Assembly: GCA_041661045.1 (NCBI GenBank)
Contig: JBAZVE010000001.1
Span: 870,001 to 902,000 of the forward strand
Length of the DNA: 32,000 nucleotides
Direction: 5' to 3'
DNA from: Candidatus Saccharimonadota bacterium
GTDB taxonomy: Bacteria > Patescibacteriota > Gracilibacteria > UBA1369 > 2-02-FULL-48-14
The first letter of the stretch is position 1. Every line of letters starts with the position of its first letter. This document shows, in pieces, positions 16,312 to 30,347 of this stretch. The translations under genes and the position numbers were made by a program. The notes under the pieces were generated by a model. It had not been told where the DNA came from, searched no databases, and saw only the letters and a list, made by a program, of their open reading frames with translations.

Positions 16312-16340
16312 ATATTAAGTAATACGAAGTCTTCAGTCAA
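16312..16340 (-). promoter_or_regulatory. Sigma70-type promoter of the arsR-CDF operon (TTGACT-N17-TAATAT)
   Basis: On the minus strand, -35 TTGACT (16335-16340) and -10 TAATAT (16312-16317) are separated by exactly 17 nt. The -10 lies 27 nt upstream of the arsR ATG at 16284. Confidence 0.55.
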
Positions 16341-16350
16341 GTTTGATATC

Positions 16351-16466
16351 CCTTTTTATACTGTCTCAAATGTCTCATTTAGCCTGAAACGCCATAGTTG
16401 TGTCTCACGGCAAGAGACACTACAATGAGACAGCCCAAAGGGTACTAGACCCGAGTGGCCAGCCAA
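16351..16466 (+). repeat. Cassette-boundary repeat copy A (long form, modules 1+2+3)
   Basis: Module 1 is CCTTTTTATACTGTCTCAAATGTCTCATT. Module 2 is TAGCCTGAAACGCCATAGTTGTGTCTCACGGCAAGAGACACTACAATGAGACAGCC. Module 3 (core) is CAAAGGGTACTAGACCCGAGTGGCCAGCCAAT, with the core GGG starting at 16440. Confidence 0.9.
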
Positions 16467-16541
16467 TTAAAAATGGGAAGTAGTCAAGTTTTTCAGCGAA
16501 AATTTTTGAAGTGATTCATATCATGCTATGATTGCGATCAT

Positions 16542-17621
16542 ATGAAATCACTTTATTGGAAGTTGCCACTTTTTCTTACTGTCTCTCTTGGTCTACTCGG
16601 AGCGATATGGCTAGGGGTAACTGTCTATCCAAATTTAACGCTTCCGATCTGTGGGGAAAAGGGTGAGTCCTCACCTGCAGTAGCGAAATCTTACGATCAA
16701 TTGTCGGTTTCCAATGAATCAATTGAGTCAGGGTCGATTTGTGATCAGGTGATTGGGATGGAGAATGTCGATGCGAGTCGTACGGATTGTTCTGTTTCCT
16801 GGGTAGATGAAGAAGGGTCCACTGCCTTCCTGGTGGCAACACGCACAAATACCTGTAGAACGCATGGCCAGAAGGAACCATTTAAAAAATACTTTTTCAG
16901 CATTTTATCTGAAAACCTTGTCTTCCCAATCACGGACTTGGCGCAATTCCCGACTTTGAATGCAGAAGGCATGGAAAATGTCGCACACTATGCAAATCAG
17001 TATGGGCTTGAATCGCTCGATTATTTTGTTGGGCAATATGCGTATTTTTGGGGAAAGAAAAATGATGTCACATGCGAGGATATGGAACTTAACGGCGCCA
17101 TCATGGAGCATTGTCGCTTTACTGCTATTAACGATCTTTATCCTGATTACGATGCTTACGCTAATAGCGTGAACTTGCTACTTAAAGAGTACAAAGATTG
17201 TAACGCTATGCGCGATAAAATGGGGTATGATGATGGAGAATATGGATCGTATTACAGTGGCAAGGTTAATACTATTCTTTCAGCATGCGCAATGACTTAT
17301 GCGCAAGAGAATAGTGACGCTTATTACTGCCTTGACCATTTCTTTGGAGAAAAAGAGGAGGGATTTGCTGGTCGCTACGAATGTGTGGAGAGGTCGACGA
17401 ATAATGTCAGTGTGGAATATTGTGACTCATTGCCAAGCAATGCGCAGGACAAGAGCAGAATGACCCCTGCATGTTATGAAGCCCTGGCCTGGGTGACACT
17501 CGATGAAAACTATTGCGACAAAATTGAATACCCTGGAAATGGCAGTGAGGAGTATTTTATAGCTCAATGCAAAGATGAAGTTCTTCAACTGAAATCTGGA
17601 GAAAAACCTCTACTAGAATAG
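16542..17621 (+). CDS. Membrane-anchored Cys-rich extracytoplasmic protein, unknown function
   Basis: 359-aa ORF with an N-terminal TM (LPLFLTVSLGLLGAIWLGVTV) and about 20 cysteines spread through the soluble part. Its stop TAG (17619-17621) is the first triplet of repeat copy B. Confidence 0.75.
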   Translation: MKSLYWKLPLFLTVSLGLLGAIWLGVTVYPNLTLPICGEKGESSPAVAKSYDQLSVSNESIESGSICDQVIGMENVDASRTDCSVSWVDEEGSTAFLVATRTNTCRTHGQKEPFKKYFFSILSENLVFPITDLAQFPTLNAEGMENVAHYANQYGLESLDYFVGQYAYFWGKKNDVTCEDMELNGAIMEHCRFTAINDLYPDYDAYANSVNLLLKEYKDCNAMRDKMGYDDGEYGSYYSGKVNTILSACAMTYAQENSDAYYCLDHFFGEKEEGFAGRYECVERSTNNVSVEYCDSLPSNAQDKSRMTPACYEALAWVTLDENYCDKIEYPGNGSEEYFIAQCKDEVLQLKSGEKPLLE

Positions 17622-17705
17622 TCTGAAACGCCATCGTTGTGTCTCACGGCAAGAGCCACTACAATGAGACAGCCTAAAGGGTACTAGACCCGAGTGGCCA
17701 GCCAT
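17619..17705 (+). repeat. Cassette-boundary repeat copy B (modules 2+3)
   Basis: TAGTCTGAAACGCCATCGTTGTGTCTCACGGCAAGAGCCACTACAATGAGACAGCCTAAAGGGTACTAGACCCGAGTGGCCAGCCAT. Core at 17679-17704. Confidence 0.9.
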
Positions 17706-17756
17706 TCTAGCTTTTTGTACACTAATCTGTTATAATAAGGAGATTTATTTTATATT

Positions 17757-18170
17757 ATGTCATCAACTCGTGAAGCACCTTCTGGCAATTTAGATCCTAG
17801 TAAGGAACAAAAATTTTTAGGTGAAAATAGAGAAATCTTGGGTGATTTACTTGCAGATGAACCAGAGAAGCGCGCAGAGGCTATGTAATCACTTTTTTCA
17901 GAACTTGAACAAGCTAAGGATGTTGACTATAAAGTAGTTTTAACAAAGTTAGTTGAAAAAGGATTTTTAGCTACCGAGTCTGCTTCGGTAGGAGAAAGAT
18001 TCTCGCTTGGGTTTTACTACGATCGAGGAGGGGAGCAGCAATCGATCTACAGGATGGATTTGCAAAAAGATGAAGCTGGTGAAACCCTTACTTTAACTCG
18101 TAATCCTGCTCAAGTAAGAGAAGAAACAGCAAAGAAATTAAGAGATCTTGAAAAAGAAATAGGCCAATAG
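17757..18170 (+). pseudogene. 137-codon reading frame interrupted by one in-frame TAA (17886-17888); unknown function
   Basis: Hand translation gives MSSTREAPSGNLDPSKEQKFLGENREILGDLLADEPEKRAEAM*SLFSELEQAKDVDYKVVLTKLVEKGFLATESASVGERFSLGFYYDRGGEQQSIYRMDLQKDEAGETLTLTRNPAQVREETAKKLRDLEKEIGQ*. AAGGAG lies at 17737-17742. The 94 codons after the TAA are stop-free and have no in-frame start before 18054. Confidence 0.5.
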
Positions 18171-18173
18171 ATG

Positions 18174-18208
18174 CAAGGGTACTAGACCCGCTTAGCCAGC
18201 CATTACGG
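18174..18208 (+). repeat. Cassette-boundary repeat copy C (module 3 only)
   Basis: CAAGGGTACTAGACCCGCTTAGCCAGCCATTACGG. The core starts at 18177, 6 nt after the stop at 18168-18170. Confidence 0.85.
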
Positions 18209-18359
18209 GCACTTTGAAAGCCTATGACCCACTTTCCTAGGGAGAAGGGGAACATAAGGCTAGGTTTTGTTTTGGGCGTAGGTATCCGTAAAGGAATTGT
18301 TGACATGACTCAAACGCCAGGCCATGATTAATTGATAGAAATATCTCCATTATAGCGCT

Positions 18360-20048
18360 ATGCAGAAGACCGTCGTCATTTTCGGTGCTGGCGTCGCGGG
18401 GCTGAGTGCCGCTCATGAATTTTCACGATTGGGATATCAAGTGACGATTTATGAATCGAATCCGGATGCGGGAGGGTTTTTTAGAAGTGCACGAATGGAC
18501 AAAGATCAAGGGATGCCGTCTGAATATTCGTGGCATGGTTTTGGTCCCTGGTATCACAATACCTATGACATCATGAGACAGATTCCATTTGATGACCACA
18601 ATAGCGTTTATGATAAAAGTCTTTCGAGACCGATCAATTATGGCATCGCCCATGATCAGACAAATGAAGATGAGGATGTGAACGACTGCTTTAGAGCCTT
18701 GAAACGATTTCGAATGACAATGTGGGACAAAATGCGATGGGCAATCTTGCTTTTTAAAACATGGAGTGCAAATAATCGTACAAAGGAATATTACTCAAGG
18801 CTCAATGCTTCTGATGCATGGAAACCGATCATGAGCGATCGGGGCTGGAAAACATGGCGCTCCACCTTTGGCCCTTGGGTTGGTTCTGATTGGACGCGCG
18901 TATCGCTGCATCATGTCGGACAATTTTTTCGTCGCAATCTCATGTCCGGAGAAAGGCACGAGCATAAATCTGATGATGAAGGAGAAGAATGGTCACAGGG
19001 TGCAGGTGATGGTTGGCTTCTGCTTCGTGGACCAAGCAACGAATTCTGGTTTGATAAATGGGTAAAATATCTTCAAGAAAAGGGGGTGAAGATGCTTTGG
19101 CAAACATCACTTCGTAAGCTGGTCTATAACGGTAAAAGTATCACAGGAGCATGCTTGTCATCTGGAGAGATGGTGCATGCAGATATTTATGTCGTTGCGA
19201 TAAATCCTTTTTCTGCTGCTGATATTTTTGATCAGACACCGGAGCTTGCAGCTCTGGACGAACTGCGTTTTTTTAGACCCCTTATAGGCGATGGTCCACA
19301 TACGCAGGTCTCTTTCCATTTAGCATTTTCCGAACGAGTATCTTGGCCCAAAGAAAGAAGTGCGCTTCTTCTGCCCGATTCGGAATTCAATCTGACTCTT
19401 TTCCCAGAAGAACAAGTGTGGTCAGAAGATGTGGTGCTTGGCGACGGTGTTGTTTCATTATGGACCGGTACCGCCTGCGTCTCATCAGTGCCTGGGAGAA
19501 AATATGGTCTAGCACTTTCCCATTGTACAAAAGAACAGTTCATTGAAGAAATAAAAGACCAACTTTCTCGCTGTGCGGAATTGAATCTCCTGTTGAAGCA
19601 AGCAAATCAAGGAAGAGAGTTAAAAGATTTTTCTTTGTTAAGAATTGAAGTCTGGCATGAGTGGCAATTTTCTTCAGCAGGTATCAAACCACGCCAGCCC
19701 AAGTGGGTCATGAGCAATCATACTCAGCCCTACCTGCCCAGCCAACGAACACCAGTTCCAAATTTGCTTCTCGCAGGTGCTCACACGAAAACAGACGCAG
19801 ATATTTGGAGTATCGAGGCTGCGGTTGAGAGTGGCCGACGAGCCGCAAAAATCATCGAACCTGAGGTTCATGTTATTGAGCAATACAAGCCAAGCTGGCT
19901 TCGTGCAATCAGTGCAATCGATGACATTTGTTTCCGCTTGAGACTCCCTCATGTCCTCGATATCCTCCTCATTATTGTTTCTGTAATCATAATTCTTTTC
20001 CTAGTGAGACTATCCCTGCGGATTACCTGGTACATATCCTTTTTCTAG
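18360..20048 (+). CDS. FAD-dependent oxidoreductase (amine oxidase / phytoene desaturase-like fold) with a C-terminal TM anchor
   Basis: 562 aa. N-terminal dinucleotide fold VVIFGAGVAGLSAAHEFSRLGYQVTIYESNPDAGG. C-terminal FAD motif LLLAGAHTKTD..WSIEAAVESGRRAA. Terminal hydrophobic helix VLDILLIIVSVIIILFLV. Confidence 0.85.
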   Translation: MQKTVVIFGAGVAGLSAAHEFSRLGYQVTIYESNPDAGGFFRSARMDKDQGMPSEYSWHGFGPWYHNTYDIMRQIPFDDHNSVYDKSLSRPINYGIAHDQTNEDEDVNDCFRALKRFRMTMWDKMRWAILLFKTWSANNRTKEYYSRLNASDAWKPIMSDRGWKTWRSTFGPWVGSDWTRVSLHHVGQFFRRNLMSGERHEHKSDDEGEEWSQGAGDGWLLLRGPSNEFWFDKWVKYLQEKGVKMLWQTSLRKLVYNGKSITGACLSSGEMVHADIYVVAINPFSAADIFDQTPELAALDELRFFRPLIGDGPHTQVSFHLAFSERVSWPKERSALLLPDSEFNLTLFPEEQVWSEDVVLGDGVVSLWTGTACVSSVPGRKYGLALSHCTKEQFIEEIKDQLSRCAELNLLLKQANQGRELKDFSLLRIEVWHEWQFSSAGIKPRQPKWVMSNHTQPYLPSQRTPVPNLLLAGAHTKTDADIWSIEAAVESGRRAAKIIEPEVHVIEQYKPSWLRAISAIDDICFRLRLPHVLDILLIIVSVIIILFLVRLSLRITWYISFF

Positions 20049-20804
20049 CTGTTGAATTAAATGGACGACTGCTTCAGGAAAATTAAAACCAAAGCGATAA
20101 TAAGATTCCGGTTTTAGTAAGGTATTAGTATCCACTACCCATATTTTTCCCTCCGGGTCGACTAATAGATTTTGCTGATCTAGGCCTGGGATATCTGGGA
20201 CACATTTCAACTCTCTGCCCATCGATTCAAAAGAACGGAGTATTTCTTCTAAAGAATTTCTAAATTGAGGTCTTTCTGCAATGGGGCCTCTGGATGCTTC
20301 TATAATTGTGTTTGGAGCTGGAATGCCTTCTTGAATCATAAAAGGATTTGTTCTCATTGCTATTGCAAACTCGTTATCTGCTTCAAATTGAGTGCTTGAT
20401 CCAAAAAAAAGTGTGTCTGGCACACTACCCTCAAAGTAGTGCTCAACAGCGGTATGTTCAACAGCATGCCTAGTAAATATTTTTTCAAGATCTCCTCTGT
20501 CTGGTGGCATGACAGAAAATCTACCCTCCGAAACCAATACTTTTACATAGCAATTACCAATTGCGAAAACCAAATATCTTTTTCCTCGGTGGCGTCTATC
20601 TACCAATACTGCTTTTCCTGAGCTTTCTAACAAACAGTTTAGCAGAGCTGCTTTGGACCGTTCTAGTAAAACCTGATTACTATTTGTGCGAGCTTTATGT
20701 AAATCCCCCTTCGGTCCAATTTTTTCGAGTTCAGTTAGTCTGTCTCGTACTTTCATCTCAGTTTCGAAGGGTGGAAAGTCTTGTAAAGTTTTTTGATGGT
20801 CCAT
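20010..20804 (-). CDS. Hypothetical protein, possibly an atypical protein-kinase-like fold
   Basis: 264-aa ORF. The weak kinase-like features are YLVFAIGNCYVKVL (a beta3-Lys-like segment) and LDQQNLLVDPEGKIWVVDTN (catalytic-loop and DFG-like). It is convergent with 18360..20048 and overlaps it by 39 nt. Confidence 0.6.
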   Translation of the reverse strand: MDHQKTLQDFPPFETEMKVRDRLTELEKIGPKGDLHKARTNSNQVLLERSKAALLNCLLESSGKAVLVDRRHRGKRYLVFAIGNCYVKVLVSEGRFSVMPPDRGDLEKIFTRHAVEHTAVEHYFEGSVPDTLFFGSSTQFEADNEFAIAMRTNPFMIQEGIPAPNTIIEASRGPIAERPQFRNSLEEILRSFESMGRELKCVPDIPGLDQQNLLVDPEGKIWVVDTNTLLKPESYYRFGFNFPEAVVHLIQQLEKGYVPGNPQG

Positions 20805-20876
20805 GATTATGCGGTCGAAGATGGTTGTAGATTATTACATCCCCTCTTTTGGATGTAAATAGTGCAAAGATTGGGA

Positions 20877-20950
20877 CGGTTGTATCTCACGGCAAGAGAC
20901 ACTACAATGAGCCAGCCAAAAAGGGTACTAGACCTGAATGGCCAGCCAAT
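20877..20950 (+). repeat. Cassette-boundary repeat copy D (partial module 2 + module 3)
   Basis: CGGTTGTATCTCACGGCAAGAGACACTACAATGAGCCAGCCAAAAAGGGTACTAGACCTGAATGGCCAGCCAAT. Core at 20923-20948. Confidence 0.9.
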
Positions 20951-20969
20951 CTAACTTAACCCAACAGTC

Positions 20970-21767
20970 ATGTCATATCTCCGTCGTTTGCTGCCGTGGT
21001 TGGTTTTGGATGTATTTTTCACTTTGGAGTTTCATCTATACCCGCTTAGGTTACTGGGCATAATGATTTATAACGATGCTTATCTGGTGCTCACAATGTT
21101 TCCGCACTTTGTTTTCTTTCTAATTTTTGGATATGTGTTTGCACGGCGAGGAGAACCTTTGAAAGTCATCCTTCGGGACGGTAGCTTTATTCTTTTCGTT
21201 TCTATCGTAGTGGCTCTTGTGAAGTATTTCTTTATCAGTCAGTCTGCTTTGTTCGATGCTGGCACGCTTTTTTCCATCTTAATAATGCTTCCGATTAGTC
21301 TCATCCCCTATTATGCCGCCTTGTTTCTAGGAATTTCAGTTTATAAGCTTAAGATGAAGGCAGTCGTTGATCGTAATAATCCTGATTTCTTTTCCTTAAA
21401 ATCGATCTTTCTACTTTCATTGAAGCCTACACTGATCTTATCGATTTTTGTTTTCCTCTTGGATGCTTATGTTTTATGGAATGGTTTCGAAGTAGGTCCT
21501 CTTTTGAGCCTTTCTTTTGTTCTATTGAATCCTATTTCTATGATAGACCTGGATATTTTCCGTGATTTAATCGTCAGGTTCCCAATCACGATTCTCTACC
21601 TCTTTGTCTTTATTTTTTTAGTAACCCTACTCTACAAACGATCTAAAAGATCTGGCTTGAGTAGAGTGCGAAAAGGCTTGTTTTATGTAGGGATAGTAGC
21701 TGTGGTGCTTTTATATCTTCTACAATCTTTTCTCTTTTTATATATAATGGCTTTGGGTGGAATTTAA
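20970..21767 (+). CDS. Polytopic membrane protein, unknown function
   Basis: 265-aa ORF with about 8 hydrophobic segments. Its stop TAA (21765-21767) is followed 2 nt later by repeat core E. Confidence 0.7.
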   Translation: MSYLRRLLPWLVLDVFFTLEFHLYPLRLLGIMIYNDAYLVLTMFPHFVFFLIFGYVFARRGEPLKVILRDGSFILFVSIVVALVKYFFISQSALFDAGTLFSILIMLPISLIPYYAALFLGISVYKLKMKAVVDRNNPDFFSLKSIFLLSLKPTLILSIFVFLLDAYVLWNGFEVGPLLSLSFVLLNPISMIDLDIFRDLIVRFPITILYLFVFIFLVTLLYKRSKRSGLSRVRKGLFYVGIVAVVLLYLLQSFLFLYIMALGGI

Positions 21768-21796
21768 AAGGGTACTAAACTCGAGTGGCCAGCCAA
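21768..21796 (+). repeat. Cassette-boundary repeat copy E (module 3 only)
   Basis: AAGGGTACTAAACTCGAGTGGCCAGCCAA. Core at 21770-21795. Confidence 0.85.
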
Positions 21797-21850
21797 AGTG
21801 GATGGCCACTAAATAATTAAGAATCTACTTACTCACTATCTATTCGTAAA

Positions 21851-22291
21851 ATGGAAGACCCTTCAGAATCTGATCTGGACATTGAATCTACGGATTCATG
21901 GTCGTTACAAATGACTTTGTTACTGGGTGCTTTTGACAAAGTTTCCCAAAAATTAGCTGGGTATGGAAATGATTCGGCAAACGCGTTAGAGTTCCTTTCC
22001 GAATTGAGATCTAAAGTCCTTCGTGTACAGGAACTTGGAGAAGCGGTTTTTCAAGATTCAGATTCGGAGCACTATAAAGATCTATTTAGTGTTCAGGGGT
22101 CAGGAGTGCGAGACTATGAATCTTTGATGCTTGAGCTCCTTGTTCGAATAGCTGGACTAATTTGTGTCCCAGAATTTTTTTATACACTTTCTCAACCAAG
22201 TGAACTGGCTAGCCTACCAAATGGAGCTACTCAACTTGCCAGTTTCTACCAGAAATTAGAGGCTCATTTAAATAGAGAAGGTGCTTTTTAA
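21851..22291 (+). CDS. Acidic soluble hypothetical protein
   Basis: 146-aa ORF with no TM and no recognisable motif. Its stop TAA (22289-22291) directly abuts repeat copy F. Confidence 0.65.
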   Translation: MEDPSESDLDIESTDSWSLQMTLLLGAFDKVSQKLAGYGNDSANALEFLSELRSKVLRVQELGEAVFQDSDSEHYKDLFSVQGSGVRDYESLMLELLVRIAGLICVPEFFYTLSQPSELASLPNGATQLASFYQKLEAHLNREGAF

Positions 22292-22323
22292 GGGTACTTG
22301 CTTCTTCACCCCAGCCATTACGG
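22292..22323 (+). repeat. Cassette-boundary repeat copy F (degenerate module 3)
   Basis: GGGTACTTGCTTCTTCACCCCAGCCATTACGG. It keeps the GGGTACT start and the CCAGCCATTACGG end, the same end as copy C, while the middle has diverged. Confidence 0.6.
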
Positions 22324-22363
22324 AAGTTTTAAAGTCTAGATGTAGAGCCATTAATCAATAGTA

Positions 22364-22780: not shown

Positions 22781-22791
22781 AGCAGTCTCAT

Positions 22792-22808
22792 GGGTACTGG
22801 ACCTGCTT
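22792..22808 (+). repeat. Cassette-boundary repeat copy G (truncated module 3)
   Basis: GGGTACTGGACCTGCTT, 11 nt after the stop at 22778-22780. It ends at the ATG of the next gene (22809). Confidence 0.55.
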
Positions 22809-23141: not shown

Positions 23142-23142
23142 T

Positions 23143-23165
23143 CCCAAAAGGTACTCGAACCCGTT
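23143..23165 (+). repeat. Cassette-boundary repeat copy H (degenerate module 3 start)
   Basis: CCCAAAAGGTACTCGAACCCGTT, compared with CCCAAAGGGTACTAGACCCGAG in copy A. The GGCCAGCC end is replaced by a local hairpin. Confidence 0.55.
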
Positions 23166-24781: not shown

Positions 24782-24897
24782 CCTTTTTATACTGTTTCAA
24801 CTATCTCATTTAGTCTGAAATGCCACAATTGTGTCTCACGGAAGAGTAGGTAAGATGAAACAGTCCCAAGGGTACTAGCCTCGAATGGCCAGCCAAT
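24782..24897 (+). repeat. Cassette-boundary repeat copy I (long form, modules 1+2+3, divergent)
   Basis: CCTTTTTATACTGTTTCAACTATCTCATTTAGTCTGAAATGCCACAATTGTGTCTCACGGAAGAGTAGGTAAGATGAAACAGTCCCAAGGGTACTAGCCTCGAATGGCCAGCCAAT. Core at 24870-24895. Confidence 0.9.
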
Positions 24898-25114: not shown

Positions 25115-25250
25115 TCTTCATTCAAGTGTTTATCAGTATGTACACTGTTTAATATGTTCAAATGGTTGAGCAAAAAGAAGACAACATACAAACTTTAAGA
25201 AAATTATTGAAGTCCCATTTGGACTGATTTATTTTTTAACCCCCTATTCT

Positions 25251-25811
25251 ATGAAGACTTTAATCTTTAGCCTGATGGTGGTTGCCCTTTTGGGCATGCA
25301 TATAGTTCAGGCAGCTCAAACTCAAACTCAAACTCAAAATTTTGAGGATATCCCACAAGGTGCCTGGTATGAAGAAGCCGTACAGTTTATGCATCAATGG
25401 GAATTCATGACTGGTGACACAAACGGAAATTTTGATCCCCATCGTTCCGTTAATCGGGCAGAACTCGCTATGGTGATGTACCGCTTTTACTATCACTTAG
25501 AAAATCAATTCCAGTTGTCTCCAGTGGTGGGAACCATGGATGTTGATAAAAATGAAACTTTCACCATTACATTGGATGCTAACCCTAGCACCGGTTACGA
25601 ATGGCAAGTGAATTTTGATGAAGATTATCTAGACTTGACGGACCGTGATTTCGAAGCAGATTCCGAGCTTTTGGGCAGTAGTGGGGAAGAAACTTTCCAG
25701 TTCAAAGCTTTGGAGTCTGGCACCACCTATATTTATTTCATCTATTTGCGCCCCTTCGAAGAAGATGAAGCGCCTATTGAGAAGCAGATCTACAAAATAA
25801 GAATTTCTTGA
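25251..25811 (+). CDS. Secreted SLH-domain protein fused to a chagasin/ICP-type (I42) cysteine-peptidase inhibitor domain
   Basis: 186 aa with a signal peptide. SLH motif FEDIPQGAWYEEAVQFMHQWEFMTGDTNGNFDPHRSVNRAELAMVMYRF. C-terminal FTITLDANPSTGYEWQVNFDEDYLDL...GSSGEETFQFKALESGTTYIYFIYLRPFE carries the NP(S/T)TGY.W signature of the I42 family. Confidence 0.85.
   Translation: MKTLIFSLMVVALLGMHIVQAAQTQTQTQNFEDIPQGAWYEEAVQFMHQWEFMTGDTNGNFDPHRSVNRAELAMVMYRFYYHLENQFQLSPVVGTMDVDKNETFTITLDANPSTGYEWQVNFDEDYLDLTDRDFEADSELLGSSGEETFQFKALESGTTYIYFIYLRPFEEDEAPIEKQIYKIRIS
25315..25338 (+). repeat. Hexanucleotide tandem repeat (CTCAAA)x4 inside the SLH-chagasin gene
   Basis: Four exact units encoding the TQTQTQ stretch just after the predicted signal-peptide cleavage site. 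Confidence 0.8.
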
Positions 25812-25934
25812 TCACTAAATTTTGCTATAGTGAAAGAAGGATTTTTAAAACTTTGCCGATAAAAACGAACACATCCAGGAATCTTAAAAACCAGTTGCCT
25901 TTTCTGAAGGAGGTGTACTGGAGAACAGACTGAA

Positions 25935-26050
25935 ACCCCGGGCGTAAGCCTGTGGGAGTTTCACCAGTGTACGGGCTTATGTGCATGAGAGAAGAAAGAG
26001 ATCCAGAAGAAATAAGAATGGCCTTTCGGTCTTGTCGTGCAGGTTCAAAT
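25935..26050 (+). pseudogene. Remnant of a second yggS-like gene (3' portion only)
   Basis: GGGCTTATGTGCATGAGAGAAGAAAGAGATCCAGAAGAAATAAGAATGGCCTTTCGGTCTTGTCGTGCAG aligns with yggS 29379-29446 (GGTCTTATGTGTATGGGAAAAGAGGGAGATCCAGAAGAAACGAGAAAGGCCTTTCGGCTTTGTCGCCAG). In translation this is RKPVGVSPVYGLMCMREERDPEEIRMAFRSCRAGSNF* against RKLRFISVVGLMCMGKEGDPEETRKAFRLCRQLA. There is no upstream coding continuation. Confidence 0.6.
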
Positions 26051-26112
26051 TTTTGACTGACACCTTTTGCCAGATGATGTGTTTCTAATGGTGTTGCTTA
26101 ACCCACTCACTC

Positions 26113-26910
26113 ATGTTTATCACATTTAAAAAAACCACCTGTTCTATACTGATCATATCTGGACTGCTCCTTAACACCCAGGTGAGTTTTGCTGCGGTCT
26201 TTGATGATGTTGACCCAAGCACTTCCGAATACTTAGCAGTAGAGTACCTATCAGGTTACGCAGTGATCAGTGGCTATGAAGATGGCTCTATTAAGCCAGC
26301 CCAAGAAATAAATCGTGCAGAAATGGTGGCAATGATGGTCCGTGCAAGTTATGGTGAGCCATCAGCCACACAGTATAGAAACTGTTTTCCTGATGTAGGA
26401 GAAGAATGGTTTGCACCTTATATTTGTTATGCAAAAGCGTATGGCTGGATTAAAGGCTATGATGATGGATATTTCCACCCCGCACGAATTGTGAACCGTG
26501 CAGAAGCCTTAAAAATGGTAAGTAACTCTTTTGAATATCAAGTGTCTGTACAAAATCAAGAAAAAGTAAATGCGTACAACGATGTGTCGGACAATGATTG
26601 GTTTGGACGCTATGCTCAATTTCAACATGAATACAATCTAAATATGTTTTTTGGTGATGAATTACATCCCGATTGGCACTTGGATCGTGGCCAAGCGATT
26701 GAGATAGTATACAGACACCACTTAATGCATCAACAAGGTGAGCCTCAATATCTAGATGAAGAGGATCGCATGCAATACTTAATCGATCAAGGTTTTGGTG
26801 ATCAAGTCCAAGAGCATCTTGAAGATCAAGACCAAGACCAAGACCAAGACCAAGACCAAGACCAAGACCAAGACCAAGACCGAGACCAAGACCAAGACCA
26901 AGGGTACTAG
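26113..26910 (+). CDS. Secreted protein with two SLH domains and a C-terminal (Asp-Gln)n repeat
   Basis: 265 aa with a signal peptide. SLH motifs FDDVDPSTSEYLAVEYLSGYAVISGYEDGSIKPAQEINRAEMVAMMVRA and FPDVGEEWFAPYICYAKAYGWIKGYDDGYFHPARIVNRAEALKMV. The tail is EDQDQDQDQDQDQDQDQDQDRDQDQDQGY*. The last two codons and the stop lie inside repeat copy J. Confidence 0.85.
   Translation: MFITFKKTTCSILIISGLLLNTQVSFAAVFDDVDPSTSEYLAVEYLSGYAVISGYEDGSIKPAQEINRAEMVAMMVRASYGEPSATQYRNCFPDVGEEWFAPYICYAKAYGWIKGYDDGYFHPARIVNRAEALKMVSNSFEYQVSVQNQEKVNAYNDVSDNDWFGRYAQFQHEYNLNMFFGDELHPDWHLDRGQAIEIVYRHHLMHQQGEPQYLDEEDRMQYLIDQGFGDQVQEHLEDQDQDQDQDQDQDQDQDQDRDQDQDQGY
26824..26901 (+). repeat. Hexanucleotide tandem repeat (GACCAA)x13, two variant units
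   Basis: One GATCAA unit, eight GACCAA, one GACCGA, then three GACCAA. It is in frame and encodes (DQ)n. Confidence 0.9.
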
Positions 26911-26914
26911 ACCC
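26902..26914 (+). repeat. Cassette-boundary repeat copy J (truncated module 3)
   Basis: GGGTACTAGACCC. Its TAG (26908-26910) is the stop codon of the SLH/(DQ)n gene, and the GGCCAGCC end is absent. Confidence 0.6.
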
Positions 26915-27207
26915 TACTTGCATCATTCATTTCTCCTGTGAGTCTAGCGATTGCTGTAAGTTTTTGATCGATATTTGATTGGTAGTTGCCGCTTGGATTG
27001 CAGGCGCATTTCTGCTCGGTTGTATGCTGGCTTACTTGATCCCTCCAGCTGGAAGCTTTCTTATATATCGCTGCTACAGATTTGATCTCAAAGTTGAAGG
27101 AAAAAAGAAAAAATTATTCCTGTAGAAAGATGATCCAGCAAATATTTTTGTTTTTGTCTGCATGGGTTCAGTGCTATTCTAAACTGTACTGTTTTATTTG
27201 GATAGTT

Positions 27208-28275
27208 ATGAATAGAGACGAAAAACCACAACTACTGCAAGATTTAAATCAGAGTACCGGAGTACTGCTCATTACAGATACGAATGGGCACATTTTGTAT
27301 GTTAATAGGCAAGTTGAGGAAACGAAAGGCTTTTCTGAACAAGAAATCTTGGGAAAACGGCCAGGTGAACTATGGGGAGGACATATGGATGAGTCTTTTT
27401 ATGAGAAAATGTGGAATTATATTTATGTTCAAAACCGCCCTTTTGTTAGTGAAGTACAAAACCTGAATAAACAGGGAGATGTCTTACATGAAGAGGTACA
27501 CATTGCTCCCCTCCTGAATCCTGAGGGCGAGGTAGAATATTTTATTGAGATCGATCCCAAAGTTCACACCAAAAGTGAACTTTCTTCTTTTGATCAAGAA
27601 TTTCTTTCCTTGGGTAAAGCTCCGCCATTGACGCCCGACGACTTGATGCACATGCTTAAACGCTGGATTCTCAAAGAACCATTGAACCGTCAGCCCGATC
27701 TCAAAGAAGATTTTGCTCACTTCATGCATCGGCTTTTCTTGTCGCAGAATACAAACTCAAAGATTGAAGATAAATTTTTAGTTGAATCTGCCCAAGAAAA
27801 TATAATTGCTTTCAAAAAACTCTACAGCAAGTATTACAAAAAAATCTTTGCTTATTTTGTTCATCGGGTGAACTTTAGGGGAGAGGCTGAGGAGCTTAGT
27901 CAAGAAACTTTCTTGAGGGCGTTCAAAAGTTTGAACTATTTTAGTTATCAAGATTGCACTTACCTCAGTTATTTGTTGATGATCGCTCATAACTTGCTCG
28001 TTAACCACTATCGAAAATACCGGCCCGTCTTGAAAGATGATTTGAGCCTTTTAGCTACTACGGATGCCTCTGAGATTTACAAAGACATTGAACTAGAACT
28101 TTTGTGGAAGGCTGTTCACGAACTTTCTAAGATCGAAGAACAAGTACTCAAGATGAAATACCAAGAAGATCGATCTGTACGGGAGATTGCATATACTTTT
28201 GATAAGAGTGAAAATGCAATTAAACTGATTTTGTCGCGGGCTCGTAAAAAATTAGGTAAACAATTCGCAGAATAA
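27208..28275 (+). CDS. PAS domain fused to an ECF-type sigma-70 factor
   Basis: PAS: GVLLITDTNGHILYVNRQVEETKGFSEQEILGKRPGELWGG...EVHIAPLLNPEGEVEYFIEI. Sigma region 2: FKKLYSKYYKKIFAYFVHRVNFRGEAEELSQETFLRAFKSLNYF...LLMIAHNLLVNHYRKY. Region 4: LSKIEEQVLKMKYQEDRSVREIAYTFDKSENAIKLILSRARKKLGKQF. I prefer the ATG at 27208 (MNRDEKPQ) over the TTG at 27082 used in the track. Confidence 0.85.
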   Translation: MNRDEKPQLLQDLNQSTGVLLITDTNGHILYVNRQVEETKGFSEQEILGKRPGELWGGHMDESFYEKMWNYIYVQNRPFVSEVQNLNKQGDVLHEEVHIAPLLNPEGEVEYFIEIDPKVHTKSELSSFDQEFLSLGKAPPLTPDDLMHMLKRWILKEPLNRQPDLKEDFAHFMHRLFLSQNTNSKIEDKFLVESAQENIIAFKKLYSKYYKKIFAYFVHRVNFRGEAEELSQETFLRAFKSLNYFSYQDCTYLSYLLMIAHNLLVNHYRKYRPVLKDDLSLLATTDASEIYKDIELELLWKAVHELSKIEEQVLKMKYQEDRSVREIAYTFDKSENAIKLILSRARKKLGKQFAE

Positions 28276-28325
28276 AAGTTACTCTTTTTACTGAGATTTA
28301 CATCTCATGTCGGAAAATCCTACTC

Positions 28326-28895
28326 ATGCGAAATCTCGTACTCTTTCTCCATCTGTCGCTCGATGGGTTCAGTGCCACTGAAGATGGCCGCCTTGATTGG
28401 ATCCCGTACAATGAATCGCTTCAACAGTACGCTGCAAAGGTTGTGGCTACCGTGGGTGTGCCTGTGTATGGCCGTGTGACCTACGAAATGATGAAAGGAT
28501 ACTGGCCGATGATGCTTCGGGACGAATCTGCCTCGAAGCAGACCAGAGAACATGCGGAGTGGCTTGAAGGTGTGGAGAAGATTGTCGTATCTACGACACT
28601 TCCAGAACAGGATTGGAACAACACACGAGTCATACGCGAGAATGTTGTAGAAGAGCTTACCAAGCTTAAACAGGAACCCGGGAAGAATCTTGTTATCTTC
28701 GGAAGCATAACGCTTGCAAACTCGCTCATGGAAAGCGATCTCATCGATGAGTTTCAGTTCACAATCAGTCCAGTTTTCCTCGGGAGGGGTAAAACATTTA
28801 TCCGAAGTATAGGGAAAAAGCTTCCACTTGAGCTGCTGGCGTCAGAGGCCGTAGAAGGAGGTGTTGTTGGGCTTCATTATAAGGTGGTGCGGTAA
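28326..28895 (+). CDS. Dihydrofolate reductase-like protein (RibD C-terminal domain family)
   Basis: 189 aa. LSLDGFSATEDGRLDWI, YGRVTYEMM, KNLVIFGSITLANSLMESDLIDEFQFTISPVFLGRGKTF. Confidence 0.85.
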   Translation: MRNLVLFLHLSLDGFSATEDGRLDWIPYNESLQQYAAKVVATVGVPVYGRVTYEMMKGYWPMMLRDESASKQTREHAEWLEGVEKIVVSTTLPEQDWNNTRVIRENVVEELTKLKQEPGKNLVIFGSITLANSLMESDLIDEFQFTISPVFLGRGKTFIRSIGKKLPLELLASEAVEGGVVGLHYKVVR

Positions 28896-28924
28896 ACCTA
28901 TTCACTCATCCAACATTGATCAAT

Positions 28925-29557
28925 ATGAACACTCGAATCGATTCATTGAAGCAAGAAGTGGCCCCGGCAAAGCTCATGGTCGTCACGAAAGGGCGATCGG
29001 CGGAGGAGGTTTATAGGGTTGTTCAGGCTGGGGCACAATATTTGGGTGAGAATCGTGTTCAAGAGGTGTTGGCAAAATACAGTCCGGATTTAATGGAAGC
29101 GCTTGCTTTGGCGGGCGCAGAAAACCATTTTATTGGCAAGCTCCAGACCAACAAGGTGAAAGCGCTTTTGCCTTATATTCACGCCATTCATTCCGTGGAT
29201 AGTTTGAAATTGGCTCAAAAAATTCACAAAGAAGCAGAATCTCTTGGGCGTATCATTCCGGTCTACCTACAAGTAAACGCTACTGGTGAAGCTCAAAAAT
29301 CAGGTTTTTCGCCAGAAGTTCTTCGGGCGCATATAGAAGAGATTCGTAAGTTAAGATTTATATCGGTGGTCGGTCTTATGTGTATGGGAAAAGAGGGAGA
29401 TCCAGAAGAAACGAGAAAGGCCTTTCGGCTTTGTCGCCAGCTGGCCAATGAGTATGAGCTCGAAGGCTGTTCCATGGGCATGAGTGCGGATTACCCCATC
29501 GCTCTCTCCGAAGGATCAACCATGGTTAGAATTGGGAGGAGGGTATTTGAGGGTTAA
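28925..29557 (+). CDS. yggS: YggS-family pyridoxal-phosphate homeostasis protein
   Basis: KLMVVTKGRS (PLP Lys), YLGENRVQE, FIGKLQTNKVK, HSVDSLKLA, YLQVNATGEAQKSGF, GLMCMG, SMGMSADY, GSTMVRIGRRVF. The ATG at 28925 is preferred over the TTG at 28916. Confidence 0.9.
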   Translation: MNTRIDSLKQEVAPAKLMVVTKGRSAEEVYRVVQAGAQYLGENRVQEVLAKYSPDLMEALALAGAENHFIGKLQTNKVKALLPYIHAIHSVDSLKLAQKIHKEAESLGRIIPVYLQVNATGEAQKSGFSPEVLRAHIEEIRKLRFISVVGLMCMGKEGDPEETRKAFRLCRQLANEYELEGCSMGMSADYPIALSEGSTMVRIGRRVFEG

Positions 29558-29615
29558 AACCTAGCCAACTCAGAGGCCTTGTTTTTTAAGAGTTTTTTTT
29601 GGTATATTTTTTACA

Positions 29616-29948
29616 ATGAAAAAAAGAGGATCCAACAGACAAACAATTCGGAAGATCCTGTTTATTTTTGGGTCATTGCTTGTGTTTGCTGTACTTATTA
29701 TTGGGCTGGTTGTTCTTTTAGAGATATTGCCTCGGGATGGGTGGGACGGGTTCTTTAGAGAAGAAAAGTTGGTGTGTAAGGATGCGGGGGGAGATTACTC
29801 TCTCTTAAATGGCTGTGGCGATTCGTGTGGTCTCCTTTCAGGAGAAGTAGCTTGCATTGCATCATTTTCCTACGCATGTGACTGTGGATCCAATCAATGT
29901 TGGGACGGGATAGAGTGTGTGAGTAATGAGTCTTTTGGAAATAAGTAA
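29616..29948 (+). CDS. Membrane-anchored small Cys-rich protein (8 Cys), duplicate of 22809..23141
   Basis: 110 aa, near-identical to the first copy at both DNA and protein level, and followed 6 nt later by repeat core K. Confidence 0.8.
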   Translation: MKKRGSNRQTIRKILFIFGSLLVFAVLIIGLVVLLEILPRDGWDGFFREEKLVCKDAGGDYSLLNGCGDSCGLLSGEVACIASFSYACDCGSNQCWDGIECVSNESFGNK

Positions 29949-29950
29949 CC

Positions 29951-29983
29951 CCAGGGGTGCTAGACCCACATCTCCAGCCAATA
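29951..29983 (+). repeat. Cassette-boundary repeat copy K (module 3, divergent middle)
   Basis: CCAGGGGTGCTAGACCCACATCTCCAGCCAATA. Core at 29955-29980. Confidence 0.75.
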
Positions 29984-29993
29984 AAAATCGATT

Positions 29994-30299
29994 ATGAGCT
30001 TTCTCTATAATAGAGTTGAAACAAAAGATAAGGTGAAAATTTCTTTCAAGAATTATTATCTCTGGTACTTGAATATTACTGCTATCTTTGCCATGGCTTT
30101 TGTGAAGCCTGGGTCAGAACTCACATATATTGCTACGATTCTTGTATTTTTATTACTGTTAGCCATCTTTTTGTATCAGTTTATTGTCCGCATGAATCTA
30201 GCGACTGAAATTGGGAAGGCCATGAAGAACGGCTCAGTGGAGGTGAGTGGAAGTAAGTTTTCGAATAAAAACCCCCTAACCTATATTATAAAAAAATAG
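29994..30299 (+). CDS. Small two-TM membrane protein, unknown function
   Basis: 101-aa ORF with hydrophobic segments WYLNITAIFAMAFV and IATILVFLLLLAIFLYQFIV. Its stop is followed 6 nt later by repeat copy L. Confidence 0.6.
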   Translation: MSFLYNRVETKDKVKISFKNYYLWYLNITAIFAMAFVKPGSELTYIATILVFLLLLAIFLYQFIVRMNLATEIGKAMKNGSVEVSGSKFSNKNPLTYIIKK

Positions 30300-30305
30300 G
30301 TCTTA

Positions 30306-30347
30306 GCGTCTCACGGCAAGAATAGGTAAGCTGAGACAGCAGCCAAT
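30306..30347 (+). repeat. Cassette-boundary repeat copy L (module 2 hairpin joined directly to the terminal AGCCAAT; GGGTAC...GGCC segment deleted)
   Basis: GCGTCTCACGGCAAGAATAGGTAAGCTGAGACAGCAGCCAATA. The GTCTCA/TGAGAC stem is retained, and the TAGGTAAG loop variant is shared with copy I. Confidence 0.7.

What the first reader, a model, noticed from the sequence alone, without database searches (positions are those of the whole stretch)
16338..30347. Twelve same-orientation repeats divide 14 kb into about 11 ORF-plus-3'-repeat cassettes: an integron-like array built on a non-attC repeat
I found twelve copies of one repeat family, all in the plus orientation: 16351, 17619, 18174, 20877, 21768, 22292, 22792, 23143, 24782, 26902, 29951 and 30306. 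I saw none in the 16 kb metal island or after 30.4 kb. The family is modular. The core is AAGGGTACTAGACCCGAGTGGCCAGCCAWT. A ~55 nt upstream module (TAGYCTGAAAYGCC...GTGTCTCACGGCAAGAG.CACTACAATGAGACAGCC) is present in copies A, B, D, I and L, and a further ~30 nt extension in A and I. The repeat is tightly coupled to plus-strand ORF ends. The distance from stop codon to repeat is 0 nt (F), 2 nt (E), 6 nt (C, K, L), about 8 nt (H) and 11 nt (G), and in B and J the stop codon lies inside the repeat. Minus-strand genes (20010..20804 and 23222..24685) sit inside cassettes as inverted cargo. Cargo is a heterogeneous accessory set: small Cys-rich, lipoprotein, membrane and SLH proteins, a sigma factor and an oxidoreductase. 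The array also contains a duplicated cassette, a gene remnant and a nonsense-interrupted ORF, which is what a recombinationally active cassette array would leave behind. I do not recognise the repeat as any described family. Alternative explanations are a lineage-specific 3'UTR RNA element (processing, stability or termination) or a REP/MITE-type repeat.
Basis: seen in the sequence. Interest (0 to 1): 0.9.

Follow-up and report, generated by a model that had tools for sequence, protein, structure and literature searches.

The report
Promoter-plus-28-nt boundary repeat framing gene cassettes
A nearly invariant 28-base sequence, headed by a portable promoter, brackets individual genes in variable regions of Peribacteria (candidate-phyla-radiation) genomes, and gene order breaks at it, so these regions look like integron cassette arrays but lack an integrase and integron-type sites.

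Summary
The repeat is real. Seven solid copies, three partial and two decayed copies lie at the stated places, all on the + strand, and none lies elsewhere in the window.

It is not private to this genome. The 28-nt core AAGGGTACTAGACCCGAGTRGCCAGCCA occurs in about 170 different contexts in some 120 Peregrinibacteria/Peribacteria contigs, with only 1-2 exact-match loci per roughly 1.2 Mb genome.

The promoter would fire just upstream of the core.

The recurrent grammar is promoter+core, ORF, core, ORF, core. The last core often abuts a convergent gene. ORF stops sit within a few nt of the core or inside it.

Homology between genomes ends exactly at core edges. Promoter+core units with no gene behind them, duplicated ORF+core units and a 7.4-kb circular or tandem segment closed at one repeat also occur.

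There is no attC signature, no dyad symmetry, no covariation, no recurrent neighbouring recombinase and no Rfam or literature match.

Best reading: a strand-specific gene-boundary element, probably read in the transcript, whose copies also serve as recombination substrates. A true integron-like site-specific system remains possible at about 0.2.

The parts
16351..16465 (+). Copy A, full long form. It has a T-tract and two TGTCTCA boxes (16362-16368, 16371-16377), a -35/-10 promoter at 16398-16426 (TTGTGT, 17 nt, TACAAT) and the 28-nt core at 16438-16465. It lies divergent from the ArsR gene 15970..16284(-).
   Evidence: ArsR identified
17619..17704 (+). Copy B, with the promoter part (-35/-10 at 17637-17665) and the core at 17677-17704. 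Its first triplet, TAG, is the stop of ORF 16542..17621.
18175..18288 (+). Copy C. The core is at 18175-18202, 4 nt after the stop of the interrupted ORF. It is followed by the ATTACGGGCA extension and a CCTAG...CTAGG hairpin with a T-run that looks like a terminator. The oxidase gene further downstream has its own TTGACA-17-CATGAT promoter.
20880..20948 (+). Copy D, with the promoter part at 20880-20908 (TTGTAT, 17 nt, TACAAT) and the core at 20921-20948. The ATG of 20970..21767 lies 21 nt after the core.
21768..21795 (+). Copy E, core only. It starts at the base after the stop of 20970..21767.
22290..22317 (+). Copy F. Both ends are kept at the right 28-nt spacing but the centre has diverged. 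It overlaps the stop of 21851..22291.
   Evidence: (D4)
22790..22803 (+). Copy G, left arm only (ATGGGTACTGGACC), lying 5 nt before the ATG of 22809..23141.
   Evidence: (E=0.054)
23147..23165 (+). Copy H, a decayed left part (AAAGGTACTCGAACCCG) after 22809..23141. It is recognised only through its paralogue K.
24782..24895 (+). Copy I, full long form, with the promoter at 24829-24856 and the core at 24868-24895. It lies divergent from the SLH gene 23222..24685(-).
   Evidence: (D10)
26900..26914 (+). Copy J, left arm only. Its TAG is the stop codon of the SLH protein 26113..26910, whose GACCAA (Asp-Gln) repeat tract runs straight into it.
   Evidence: (D3, D7)
29953..29980 (+). Copy K, a core with a diverged left arm and centre, lying after the duplicated ORF 29616..29948. 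The next ATG is 13 nt downstream.
30306..30346 (+). Copy L, with the promoter part joined to the right end (...GAGACAGC|AGCCAAT). The core is lost through a deletion between two CAGCC repeats.
   Evidence: (D8)
16542..23141 (+). Cargo of the first stretch. It holds 16542..17621 (secreted, Cys-rich), 17757..18170 (one frame with one TAA), 18360..20048 (amine-oxidase-type flavoprotein), 20970..21767 (membrane), 21851..22291, 22364..22780 (lipoprotein) and 22809..23141 (Cys-rich). It also holds 20010..20804 on the - strand.
23222..24685 (-). SLH-domain protein transcribed divergently from long form I. It is conserved next to the long form in L004 and L070 (80-84% amino-acid identity). In L127 it is conserved without any repeat.
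25251..30802 (+). Cargo of the second stretch. It holds 25251..25811 (SLH + chagasin-type inhibitor), 26113..26910 (SLH), 27082..28275 (PAS + sigma-70 r2/r4), 28326..28895 (RibD_C), 28916..29557 (YggS-type), 29616..29948 (duplicate of 22809..23141), 29994..30299 and 30371..30802 (lipoprotein, paralogue of 22364..22780).

Best explanation
The repeat has two functional pieces.

(1) The long copies (A, I; partly B, D, L) are a complete portable promoter. It has a T-tract, two or three TGTCTCA boxes 10 nt apart, a -35 of TTGTsT, a 16-17 nt spacer and a -10 of TAnnnT. If it fires at the usual distance from the -10, the transcript begins 3-12 nt upstream of the core.

(2) The 28-nt core AAGGGTACTAGACCCGAGTRGCCAGCCA is a strand-specific, sequence-specific gene-boundary element. 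It lies at the start of the transcript, between successive ORFs and after the last ORF.

I think the core is most likely read in the transcript by a conserved protein or RNA, as a processing or insulating mark. It would give every ORF of these accessory operons the same ends. The upstream ORF keeps the core as its trailer, and the next ORF starts about 12-28 nt after it. These genomes almost never use Shine-Dalgarno sites.

Because each ORF is bracketed by identical direct repeats, recombination between copies deletes, duplicates, circularises and swaps ORF+core units. The regions therefore evolve like cassette arrays without a dedicated integrase. Recombination between long forms would be homologous. 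Recombination between 28-nt cores would rest on short homology or microhomology.

Shown: the repeat family, its architecture, the promoter signature, the n+1 grammar, the coupling to ORF ends, the wide distribution in the lineage, the low copy number per genome, and rearrangement breakpoints at the repeat.

Inferred: that the core acts at RNA level, what reads it, and that recombination is passive.
For: Reality and spread:
- establish the family in the window.
- 48 genome loci and 78 metagenome loci carry it, almost all from Peregrinibacteria/Peribacteria, with 1-2 exact hits per contig of about 1.2 Mb.
- There are 169 non-redundant cores. Entropy is near zero at 22 of 28 positions and the edges are sharp.

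Promoter:
- In 26 aligned long forms the -35 TTGTGT and only T, A and T of the -10 are invariant.
- 53 of 78 long or partial forms fit TTGTNT-N16/17-TAnnnT. The spacing is 17 in 48 of them, there are 14 different -10 hexamers, and the motif ends 9-23 nt before the core.
- Long forms often sit in divergent intergenic regions, for example next to ArsR or CsoR.

Boundary grammar:
- Arrays of long form, ORF, core, ORF, core that end against a convergent gene occur in L047, L009, L053, L093, L106 and others.
- Of 82 short copies with an upstream ORF, 54 have the stop between 8 nt before the core and +20 inside it, 25 use a TAG inside the core, and 4 read through it.
- The modal distance from the core to the next ATG is 16-17 nt. 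Shine-Dalgarno motifs precede only 2-3% of ORFs.
- All copies are co-oriented with the flanking genes.

Recombination at the repeat:
- L043 and L045 are 90% identical up to the last base of the core and unrelated beyond it. L095, L108, L058 and L116 behave the same way, and L090/L124 do so from the other side.
- Alignment end points are about 7-fold enriched at core edges, 47 against 6.8 +/- 2.8.
- L070 and L124 have a promoter+core with no downstream gene.
- L004 joins the long form to an internal site of the oxidase gene at a CAGCCCAAG(T)GGGT microhomology.
- The window holds a duplicated unit, and L066 and L044 hold tandem duplicates.
- L045 is a 7.37-kb circular or tandem segment closed at one long form. 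An independent assembly, L081, shares the junction.

Passive rather than dedicated recombination:
- No recombinase family recurs among 133 neighbour families.
- The core has no dyad symmetry.
- The 13 left-arm-only copies break at different positions.
Against: - No transcript data exist, so neither the start site nor any processing is shown.
- No covariation supports an RNA fold.
- The only possible helix, GGGT/ACCC, is invariant and therefore uninformative. Some variant copies break it.
- A 28-nt homology is short for RecA-type recombination.
- The comparison with random positions does not correct for the tendency of homology to end at gene boundaries in general.
- Promoter+core units with no downstream gene, and tandem cores with no ORF between them (L023, L106), have no obvious RNA-level use. 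They fit a DNA-level att-site reading at least as well.
Confidence: 0.45

Rival explanations
1. A true integron-like site-specific system. The core is an att site: attI-like when it lies behind the promoter, attC-like when it lies after each ORF. A recombinase encoded elsewhere in the genome recognises it. That could be a housekeeping enzyme, as Xer is for pdif modules, or a single-strand or RNA-guided enzyme that needs no dyad symmetry. Circular ORF+core units are excised and inserted at resident cores.
For: - The topology matches an integron: promoter, site, then ORF-site units repeated n times, including a final site and arrays with no cassette.
- The same gene families occur with their core in unrelated contexts, for example Bro-N G8, F10, G159 and Fic.
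- Breakpoints fall at core edges.
- A circular or tandem segment carries one repeat.
- The core supplies stop codons in two frames, as attC sometimes does.
- Conservation is far higher than ordinary regulatory sites need.
- Cargo is small, secreted, defence-type and of unknown function.
Against: - There is no intI or other recombinase in the window, and none recurs among neighbours.
- There is no R''/R' consensus, no hairpin and no dyad symmetry.
- Left-arm-only copies break at positions 14 to 22 rather than at one point.
- The variable centre differs between cores of one array, which classical tyrosine recombinases tolerate poorly.
- No case with both flanks conserved and a clean cassette insertion or deletion was found.
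Confidence: 0.2
2. A DNA- or elongation-complex-level transcription signal repeated before each ORF. It could be a promoter for an alternative sigma factor or RNA polymerase, or a loading site for a NusG/RfaH-type factor read on the non-template strand, like ops/JUMPStart. Either would drive expression of foreign genes that lack Shine-Dalgarno sites.
For: - The element is strictly co-oriented with genes and asymmetric.
- It has two conserved blocks around a less conserved centre.
- The next ATG is most often 16-17 nt after it.
- A PAS-sigma-factor gene lies inside the window array.
- A histidine kinase and an OmpR-type regulator lie just beyond the window.
Against: - About a quarter of short copies face a convergent gene 0-20 nt away, so there is no ORF for them to serve.
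- 28 contiguous near-invariant positions are unlike sigma-70-family promoters.
- The sigma factor is not a recurrent neighbour.
- In long forms a good sigma-70 promoter already lies directly upstream.
Confidence: 0.13
3. A non-autonomous selfish repeat of REP, MITE or CREE type. It targets gene ends and is mobilised by a transposase encoded elsewhere, with no benefit to the host.
For: - It is a short intergenic repeat with partial and decayed copies.
- It lies right after stop codons, as REP and BIME elements do.
- It is present in many species.
Against: - Only 1-2 exact-match loci occur per genome, and they are clustered rather than dispersed.
- There are no terminal inverted repeats, no visible target duplication, no palindrome and no RAYT or other transposase among neighbours.
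- All copies have one orientation relative to genes.
- 92% of left-arm matches keep the right arm, and the sequence is the same across the class. That indicates purifying selection rather than bursts and decay.
Confidence: 0.07

Closest known systems
Integron gene-cassette arrays, including chromosomal arrays and attC clusters that lack an integrase
   Same: A promoter and a first site come first, followed by co-oriented, mostly promoter-less small ORFs, each followed by a site. A final site closes the array. Platforms with no cassette exist. Cargo is heterogeneous and mostly uncharacterised. Stop codons sometimes lie inside the site. Content varies between relatives.
   Different: No IntI was found. 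The site is a 28-nt asymmetric invariant sequence rather than a 57-141-nt imperfect palindrome with R''/R' boxes. The site behind the promoter and the sites after the ORFs are the same sequence. Partial copies do not share one crossover point. Several small arrays lie next to housekeeping genes rather than forming one platform.
PeSL (promoter-early stem-loop) regulatory cassettes of T4-type phages (PMC2839356, PMC4122927)
   Same: Conserved regulatory motifs that include a sigma-70-type promoter sit between small non-essential ORFs in hypervariable regions. According to the paper's abstract, recombination between copies shuffles the ORFs and can produce small circles. That matches the logic of my best explanation.
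   Different: PeSLs are promoter plus terminator stem-loop in phage genomes. Here the recurring unit is a 28-nt core with neither hairpin nor T-run, and only the head copies carry the promoter. The host is a cellular Peribacteria chromosome, and no copy is found in viral contigs.
REP/BIME intercistronic elements of enterobacteria and their RAYT transposases
   Same: Short repeats lie right after stop codons and between cistrons. They are thought to affect mRNA ends, and they are also recombination substrates.
   Different: REPs are palindromic, occur in both orientations, number in the hundreds per genome and are linked to RAYT genes. None of these features holds here.
pdif modules of Acinetobacter plasmids (28-bp XerC/D sites flanking gene modules)
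   Same: The site is 28 nt long. Genes are bracketed by sites. The recombinase, if there is one, would be encoded elsewhere.
   Different: pdif sites have an 11-6-11 dyad structure and alternate in orientation. The core has no dyad, all copies are direct, and it bears no similarity to dif consensus sequences (the dif comparison is from my own knowledge).
ops/JUMPStart elements read by RfaH
   Same: A strand-specific short element lies in the leader of horizontally acquired, Shine-Dalgarno-poor operons.
   Different: ops is 12 nt long and occurs once or twice per operon, not after every ORF. No NusG paralogue was seen near the arrays. This comparison rests on my own knowledge and was not tested.

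Membership tests
Integron / attC | attC site: imperfect inverted repeats R''(RYYYAAC)-L''...L'-R'(GTTRRRY) that fold into a hairpin | tested here: not met
   There are no R''..R' pairs on either strand of 16.3-30.4 kb, against about 1.4 expected in shuffles. The consensus core lacks both boxes. Its longest stem is 4 bp, and 35% of shuffles do as well. There is no covariation for the long-form hairpin and no long-range mutual information.
Integron / attC | Adjacent intI tyrosine recombinase with attI | tested here: not met
   No Pfam recombinase domain occurs in any window ORF tested. No Phage_integrase, Resolvase or transposase family appears among the families shared by two or more of 133 neighbour representatives. 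This check was not exhaustive, because only the top 25 of 155 families were shown.
Integron / attC | Promoter at the head of an array of co-oriented ORF+site units | tested here: met
   The promoter signature is present in long forms. The array grammar is seen in the window and in more than 20 loci.
Integron / attC | Cassette-level gain or loss with junctions exactly at the site | tested here: inconclusive
   Homology ends at core edges, and duplicated units, units with no downstream gene and a circular or tandem segment all exist. No pair was found with both flanks conserved and a clean insertion or deletion. Half-site breakpoints are heterogeneous.
REP / RAYT | High-copy, genome-wide dispersed palindromic repeat linked to a Y1 (RAYT) transposase | tested here: not met
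   Contigs of 0.7-1.25 Mb carry 1-2 exact matches. The core is not a palindrome. No Y1_Tnp family recurs among neighbours.
MITE | Terminal inverted repeats and target-site duplication | tested here: not met
   The left end CCTTTTTATAC and the right end CCAGCCA are unrelated. The flanks of 58 long forms show no duplication on inspection.
PeSL-type regulatory cassette | Composite of a sigma-70 promoter and a terminator stem-loop between ORFs of a phage hyperplastic region | tested here: not met
   The promoter is present only in head or partial copies. The core has no stem-loop or T-run. Viral contigs give no match. The functional logic, recombination between regulatory repeats, is shared.
Described RNA families (Rfam 15) | Match to a curated covariance model | tested here: not met
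   There are no hits at gathering score in the whole window. Over 16300-18300 only chance-level hits appear, with E above 1.
tRNA/tmRNA-derived att repeats | The repeat equals the 3' part of a tRNA or tmRNA gene | tested here: not met
   ARAGORN finds no tRNA or tmRNA in the window. The core has no T-loop consensus on inspection.
Xer/dif-type (pdif) module | 28-bp site with two inverted 11-bp arms around a 6-bp centre, in alternating orientation | tested here: not met
   Matches of the core to its own reverse complement are 14, not above shuffles (16% of shuffles reach this). All copies are direct.
CRISPR array | Regular 25-40-nt spacers between repeats, with cas genes nearby | tested here: not met
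   Spacing is 350-3050 nt and holds ORFs. No cas domains were found.

The most novel reading that the evidence does not exclude
Peribacteria, and more widely the Peregrinibacteria, possess a previously unrecognised gene-capture system. A 28-nt asymmetric site placed behind a portable promoter serves as the integration platform, and the same site serves as the cassette boundary. An unlinked and so far unknown enzyme acts on it, possibly a single-strand or RNA-guided one. This would be an integron analogue invented independently in the candidate phyla radiation.
Probability: 0.2. Interest if true: 0.9.

Novelty: new variant of a known kind. Interest (0 to 1): 0.7.

Why it matters
Candidate-phyla-radiation bacteria have tiny genomes and few recognisable mobile elements. 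How they acquire and express accessory genes is largely unknown. These genes include surface proteins, defence genes and metal resistance genes.

A class-wide, nearly invariant 28-nt gene-boundary element coupled to a portable promoter marks their variable regions. It gives a searchable handle on them.

If the core is an RNA processing or insulation mark, it is a bacterial form of operon punctuation in organisms that barely use Shine-Dalgarno sites. If it is a recombination site, it is a new cassette-capture system without a linked integrase.

Either way it defines a testable recognition problem: what reads 28 invariant bases? It also offers a possible compact part for expressing or assembling genes in these uncultured lineages.

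Tried and rejected
- Rfam at gathering score and at E-value threshold found nothing.
- tRNA/tmRNA origin is rejected.
- The generic promoter/terminator scan of the region was not above shuffles. It missed the element because the -35 is TTGTsT.
- RNA folds looked strong for single copies. The minus strand of A gave z = -4.8. Across 26 long forms the hairpin gets no more covariation than shuffles. In many species TGAGACAG is replaced while CTGTCTCA stays. I therefore dropped an attC-like or structured-RNA reading of the long form.
- I looked for compensatory changes in the GGGT/ACCC stem and for a loop-tail pseudoknot (CUAG with NUAG). Variant copies break the pairs rather than compensate.
- The Shine-Dalgarno replacement idea is dropped. 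These genomes lack such sites everywhere, at 2-3% of ORFs.
- The apparent left-arm match at window 454 lies inside a minus-strand transporter gene. I treat it as chance.
- The idea of one fixed crossover in the variable centre is not upheld, because breakpoints are heterogeneous.
- The search for a linked recombinase found none that recurs. A large serine recombinase appears in L127, which has no repeat at all.
- The exact-protein look-up of ORF 16542..17621 found no record.
- Literature searches on Peribacteria repeats, Peregrinibacteria integrons and the literal sequences found nothing. The Peribacteria genome paper does not mention the element.
- CsoR/ArsR operator similarity of the core was considered from memory and rejected, because the arm order is opposite.

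Full report
OBSERVATION

All hits are on the + strand between 16.4 and 24.9 kb, against zero expected from shuffles. The repeat finder recovers the modular families independently. D4 and D7 are the core, D5, D6 and D8 are the core plus the upstream part, and D10 is the extra 5' extension shared by A and I.

An nhmmer profile iterated over the window and related loci reports ten + strand copies and nothing outside 16.3-30.4 kb. F (diverged centre) and H (decayed) fall below the profile threshold. F keeps both ends at the correct 28-nt spacing. H lies at the position where its paralogue K has a core after the duplicated ORF.

The stated stop-to-repeat distances hold. So do the duplicated cassette, at 90% identity, and the interrupted ORF, one frame with one TAA.

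WHOSE GENOME, AND HOW WIDESPREAD

A strict core pattern (19.5 specified bases) finds 48 loci in the species-representative genome collection. Almost all are Candidatus Peregrinibacteria/Peribacteria MAGs. The few with other labels are short contigs and are probably mis-binned.

The same pattern finds 78 loci in metagenome contigs and none in viral contigs. Contigs of 0.7-1.25 Mb carry only one or two exact matches, and MAGs have 1-2 loci. This is therefore not a dispersed REP-type repeat.

The window's own SLH protein is found at 100% identity on a 1.32-Mb contig.

Across 169 non-redundant copies, the 28 nt AAGGGTACTAGACCCGAGTRGCCAGCCA are almost invariant. Only positions 15-17 and 19 vary. 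Entropy jumps to background one or two bases outside the block.

THE LONG FORM IS A PROMOTER

Aligning 26 long forms of the window type shows which columns are invariant:
- TTTATAC;
- two TGTCTCA boxes 10 nt apart;
- CCTGAAA;
- TTGTGT;
- 17 nt further on, only T, A and T of a hexamer.

That last pattern is the classic TAnnnT signature of a -10 box.

Over all long and partial forms, 53 of 78 fit TTGTNT-N16/17-TAnnnT. The spacing is 17 in 48 of them, and there are 14 different -10 hexamers. The motif ends 9-23 nt before the core. A second architectural type of about 93 nt uses the second TGTCTCA box itself as the -35.

The sequence TGAGACAG makes the window's copy A look like a long hairpin. In many species it is replaced, while its partner stays unchanged. 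A pair count finds no more covariation than in shuffles. The conservation is therefore of the DNA-signal kind and not of an attC-like fold.

A transcript started 6-8 nt after the -10 would begin 3-12 nt before the core. This start site is inferred from the usual geometry of such promoters.

Long forms commonly lie in divergent intergenic regions. Examples are the ArsR gene here, and CsoR genes in L043, L045, L058 and L116. A histidine kinase and an OmpR/PhoB-type regulator lie just beyond the window's right end. The directly repeated TGTCTCA boxes resemble binding sites for that class of regulator. This last point is my inference only.

THE GRAMMAR

In the window and in more than twenty other loci the order is long form, ORF, core, ORF, core, and so on. 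The last core frequently lies 0-20 nt from the stop of a convergent gene. There are therefore n+1 cores for n ORFs.

Of 95 short copies, 82 have a same-strand ORF ending nearby. Their stops fall as follows:

| Position of the upstream ORF's stop | Copies |
|---|---|
| 0-5 nt before the core | 21 |
| Overlapping the core's first bases | 4 |
| TAG at +8 inside the core | 15 |
| TAG at +18 inside the core | 10 |
| At +0 inside the core | 1 |
| ORF reads through the core | 4 |
| 6-20 nt before the core | 14 |
| More than 20 nt before the core | 13 |

The next ATG is most often 16-17 nt after the core, within a broader range of 12-28 nt. Shine-Dalgarno motifs precede only 2-3% of ORFs, whether or not a core is near.

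A one-sided role fails either way. A purely 5' element does not explain the many cores that face convergent genes. A purely 3' element does not explain the cores behind promoters. The core is a boundary element.

REARRANGEMENTS AT THE REPEAT

- L043 and L045 are 90% identical through the CsoR gene and the whole long form, up to the last A of CCAGCCA. After that they are unrelated. L095, L108, L058 and L116 behave the same way. L090 and L124 share the downstream Fic gene and the core but differ upstream.
- Internal alignment end points fall within 8 nt of a core edge 47 times, against 6.8 +/- 2.8 for random positions. This control does not correct for gene boundaries in general.
- Three relatives share the SLH gene and long form I at 80-84% identity but differ completely downstream:
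  - the window has the SLH/chagasin cassettes;
  - L004 joins the long form to the 3' remnant of an oxidase gene at a CAGCCCAAG(T)GGGT microhomology, then has a core and different ORFs;
  - L070 has the long form directly against a convergent gene.
- A fourth relative, L127, has no repeat at all and carries a tRNA-Gln gene at that place.
- The same gene families travel with a core into unrelated contexts and occur as tandem duplicates. Examples are the Bro-N family G8, F10, F7, G159 and Fic.
- L045 has an exact 99-nt terminal overlap. It is therefore a circular or tandemly repeated 7.37-kb copper-resistance segment closed at a single long form. An independent assembly, L081, shares the junction.

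WHAT ARGUES AGAINST A CLASSICAL INTEGRON-TYPE MECHANISM

- No recombinase domain occurs in the window ORFs.
- The recurrent neighbours are housekeeping genes (BipA, DEAD-box helicase, guanylate kinase, M23 peptidase, a class II tRNA synthetase) or accessory genes (Fic, Bro-N, ParB-methylase).
- Among 133 neighbour-family representatives, no integrase, resolvase or transposase family recurs.
- The core lacks the attC boxes, has no stem beyond 4 bp and has no dyad symmetry above chance.
- Of 168 left-arm matches, 155 keep the right arm. The 13 that do not break at positions 14 to 22, or show small slippage deletions, rather than breaking at one crossover.

MECHANISM

I commit to the following, at 0.45. 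The long form is a portable, probably regulated promoter. The core is a strand-specific recognition sequence carried in the transcript, at the head, between cistrons and at the tail. It is probably a processing or insulating mark that standardises the ends of each cistron. Identical direct repeats around every ORF make these regions recombine like cassette arrays.

The closest functional precedent is the PeSL regulatory cassette of T4-type phages. According to the paper's abstract, recombination between promoter-containing motifs shuffles small ORFs there and yields mini-circles.

The integron-like site-specific reading is kept at 0.2. It explains promoter+core units with no downstream gene and cores in tandem with no ORF between them more naturally. 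It needs an unlinked, unconventional enzyme. A transcription-signal reading is at 0.13 and a selfish-repeat reading at 0.07. Both are less consistent with the data.

NOVELTY

There is no Rfam family. No full-text hit was found for the sequences or the topic. The Peribacteria genome paper does not mention the element.

I rate it a new variant of a known kind: cassette arrays or regulatory-repeat-mediated shuffling, here in a cellular candidate-phyla-radiation lineage, with an unusual 28-nt asymmetric invariant boundary.

Noticed in passing
L045 (whole locus, 7467 nt); homologous to window 1798-8687 and 10822-11134: The contig has an exact 99-nt terminal overlap, so it is a circular or tandemly amplified 7.37-kb segment. 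It carries a multicopper oxidase, a beta-propeller protein, CsoR and small membrane proteins, lacks the P-type ATPase, and is closed at one long-form repeat. L081 is an independent assembly of the same junction.
   Followed up: partly
window 18196-18288; L045 3035-3203; L095 8077-7907(-); L121 530-692: A second conserved module of up to about 170 nt follows the core in some loci. It begins (A/T)TACGGGCA, contains ..CCTATGACCCGAGTACCTAGGG.., a partial direct repeat of the core centre GACCCGAGTA, and has hairpins with T-runs. In L095 it runs up to the ATG of a 346-aa ORF with no Pfam match. It could be a terminator, an attenuator or a leader RNA.
   Followed up: partly
all loci (617 ORFs away from cores, 46 near cores): GGAG, GAGG or AGGA occurs between -18 and -4 of only 2-3% of ORF starts. 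These Peribacteria genomes therefore appear to initiate translation essentially without Shine-Dalgarno pairing.
   Followed up: partly
L130 4723-6500 (just beyond the right end of the window; window 31574-31975 is the C-terminus of the kinase): A HAMP-HisKA histidine kinase and an OmpR/PhoB-type response regulator lie directly after the array. The two or three TGTCTCA boxes spaced 10 nt apart in the long form resemble direct-repeat binding sites for that regulator class.
   Followed up: no
L089 3312-4547(+) and L092 4142-5401(-): A reverse transcriptase of 411-419 aa lies next to repeat arrays in two loci. It matches RVT_1 strongly and the group II intron maturase domain weakly. In L092 it is divergent from the long form.
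   Followed up: partly
L127 9680-9754 and 12208-15659: A relative with an 84% identical SLH gene has no repeat. It carries tRNA-Gln where the long form sits in the window. On the other side of the SLH gene it has an S24 peptidase, a large serine recombinase and a ParB-methylase, an island that looks like an integrated element.
   Followed up: partly
window 26800-26908 and 24435-24542: There are two coding tandem repeats. A GACCAA (Asp-Gln) tract at the end of SLH protein 26113..26910 runs straight into core J. An acidic Asp/Glu-rich tract lies near the N-terminus of the minus-strand SLH protein. A Logan contig, L130, breaks at the first tract.
   Followed up: no
window 24896-25250: About 350 nt of non-coding sequence lie between long form I and the next ORF. 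They include a 12-bp perfect hairpin with a T-rich tail at 25085-25114. Long form I may therefore drive a short non-coding transcript rather than ORF 25251..25811.
   Followed up: no
window 30847-30971 (minus strand); L038 3724-3848: An 86% identical 125-nt stretch is shared with an unrelated locus. It encodes a small DUF5670-type membrane protein on the minus strand, called as a 50-aa gene in L130. It is not a repeat copy.
   Followed up: partly
window 29549-29570: A possible thirteenth, strongly decayed core (GAGGGTTAAAACCTAGCCAACT) overlaps the stop codon of the YggS-type gene. In L017 and L101 the homologous gene is instead preceded by a core.
   Followed up: no
window 22364-22780 and 30371-30802: These two lipoprotein ORFs are paralogues (family F29), as are 22809..23141 and 29616..29948. 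In both places the lipoprotein gene and the Cys-rich gene lie close together. This suggests an older segmental duplication within the array.
   Followed up: no
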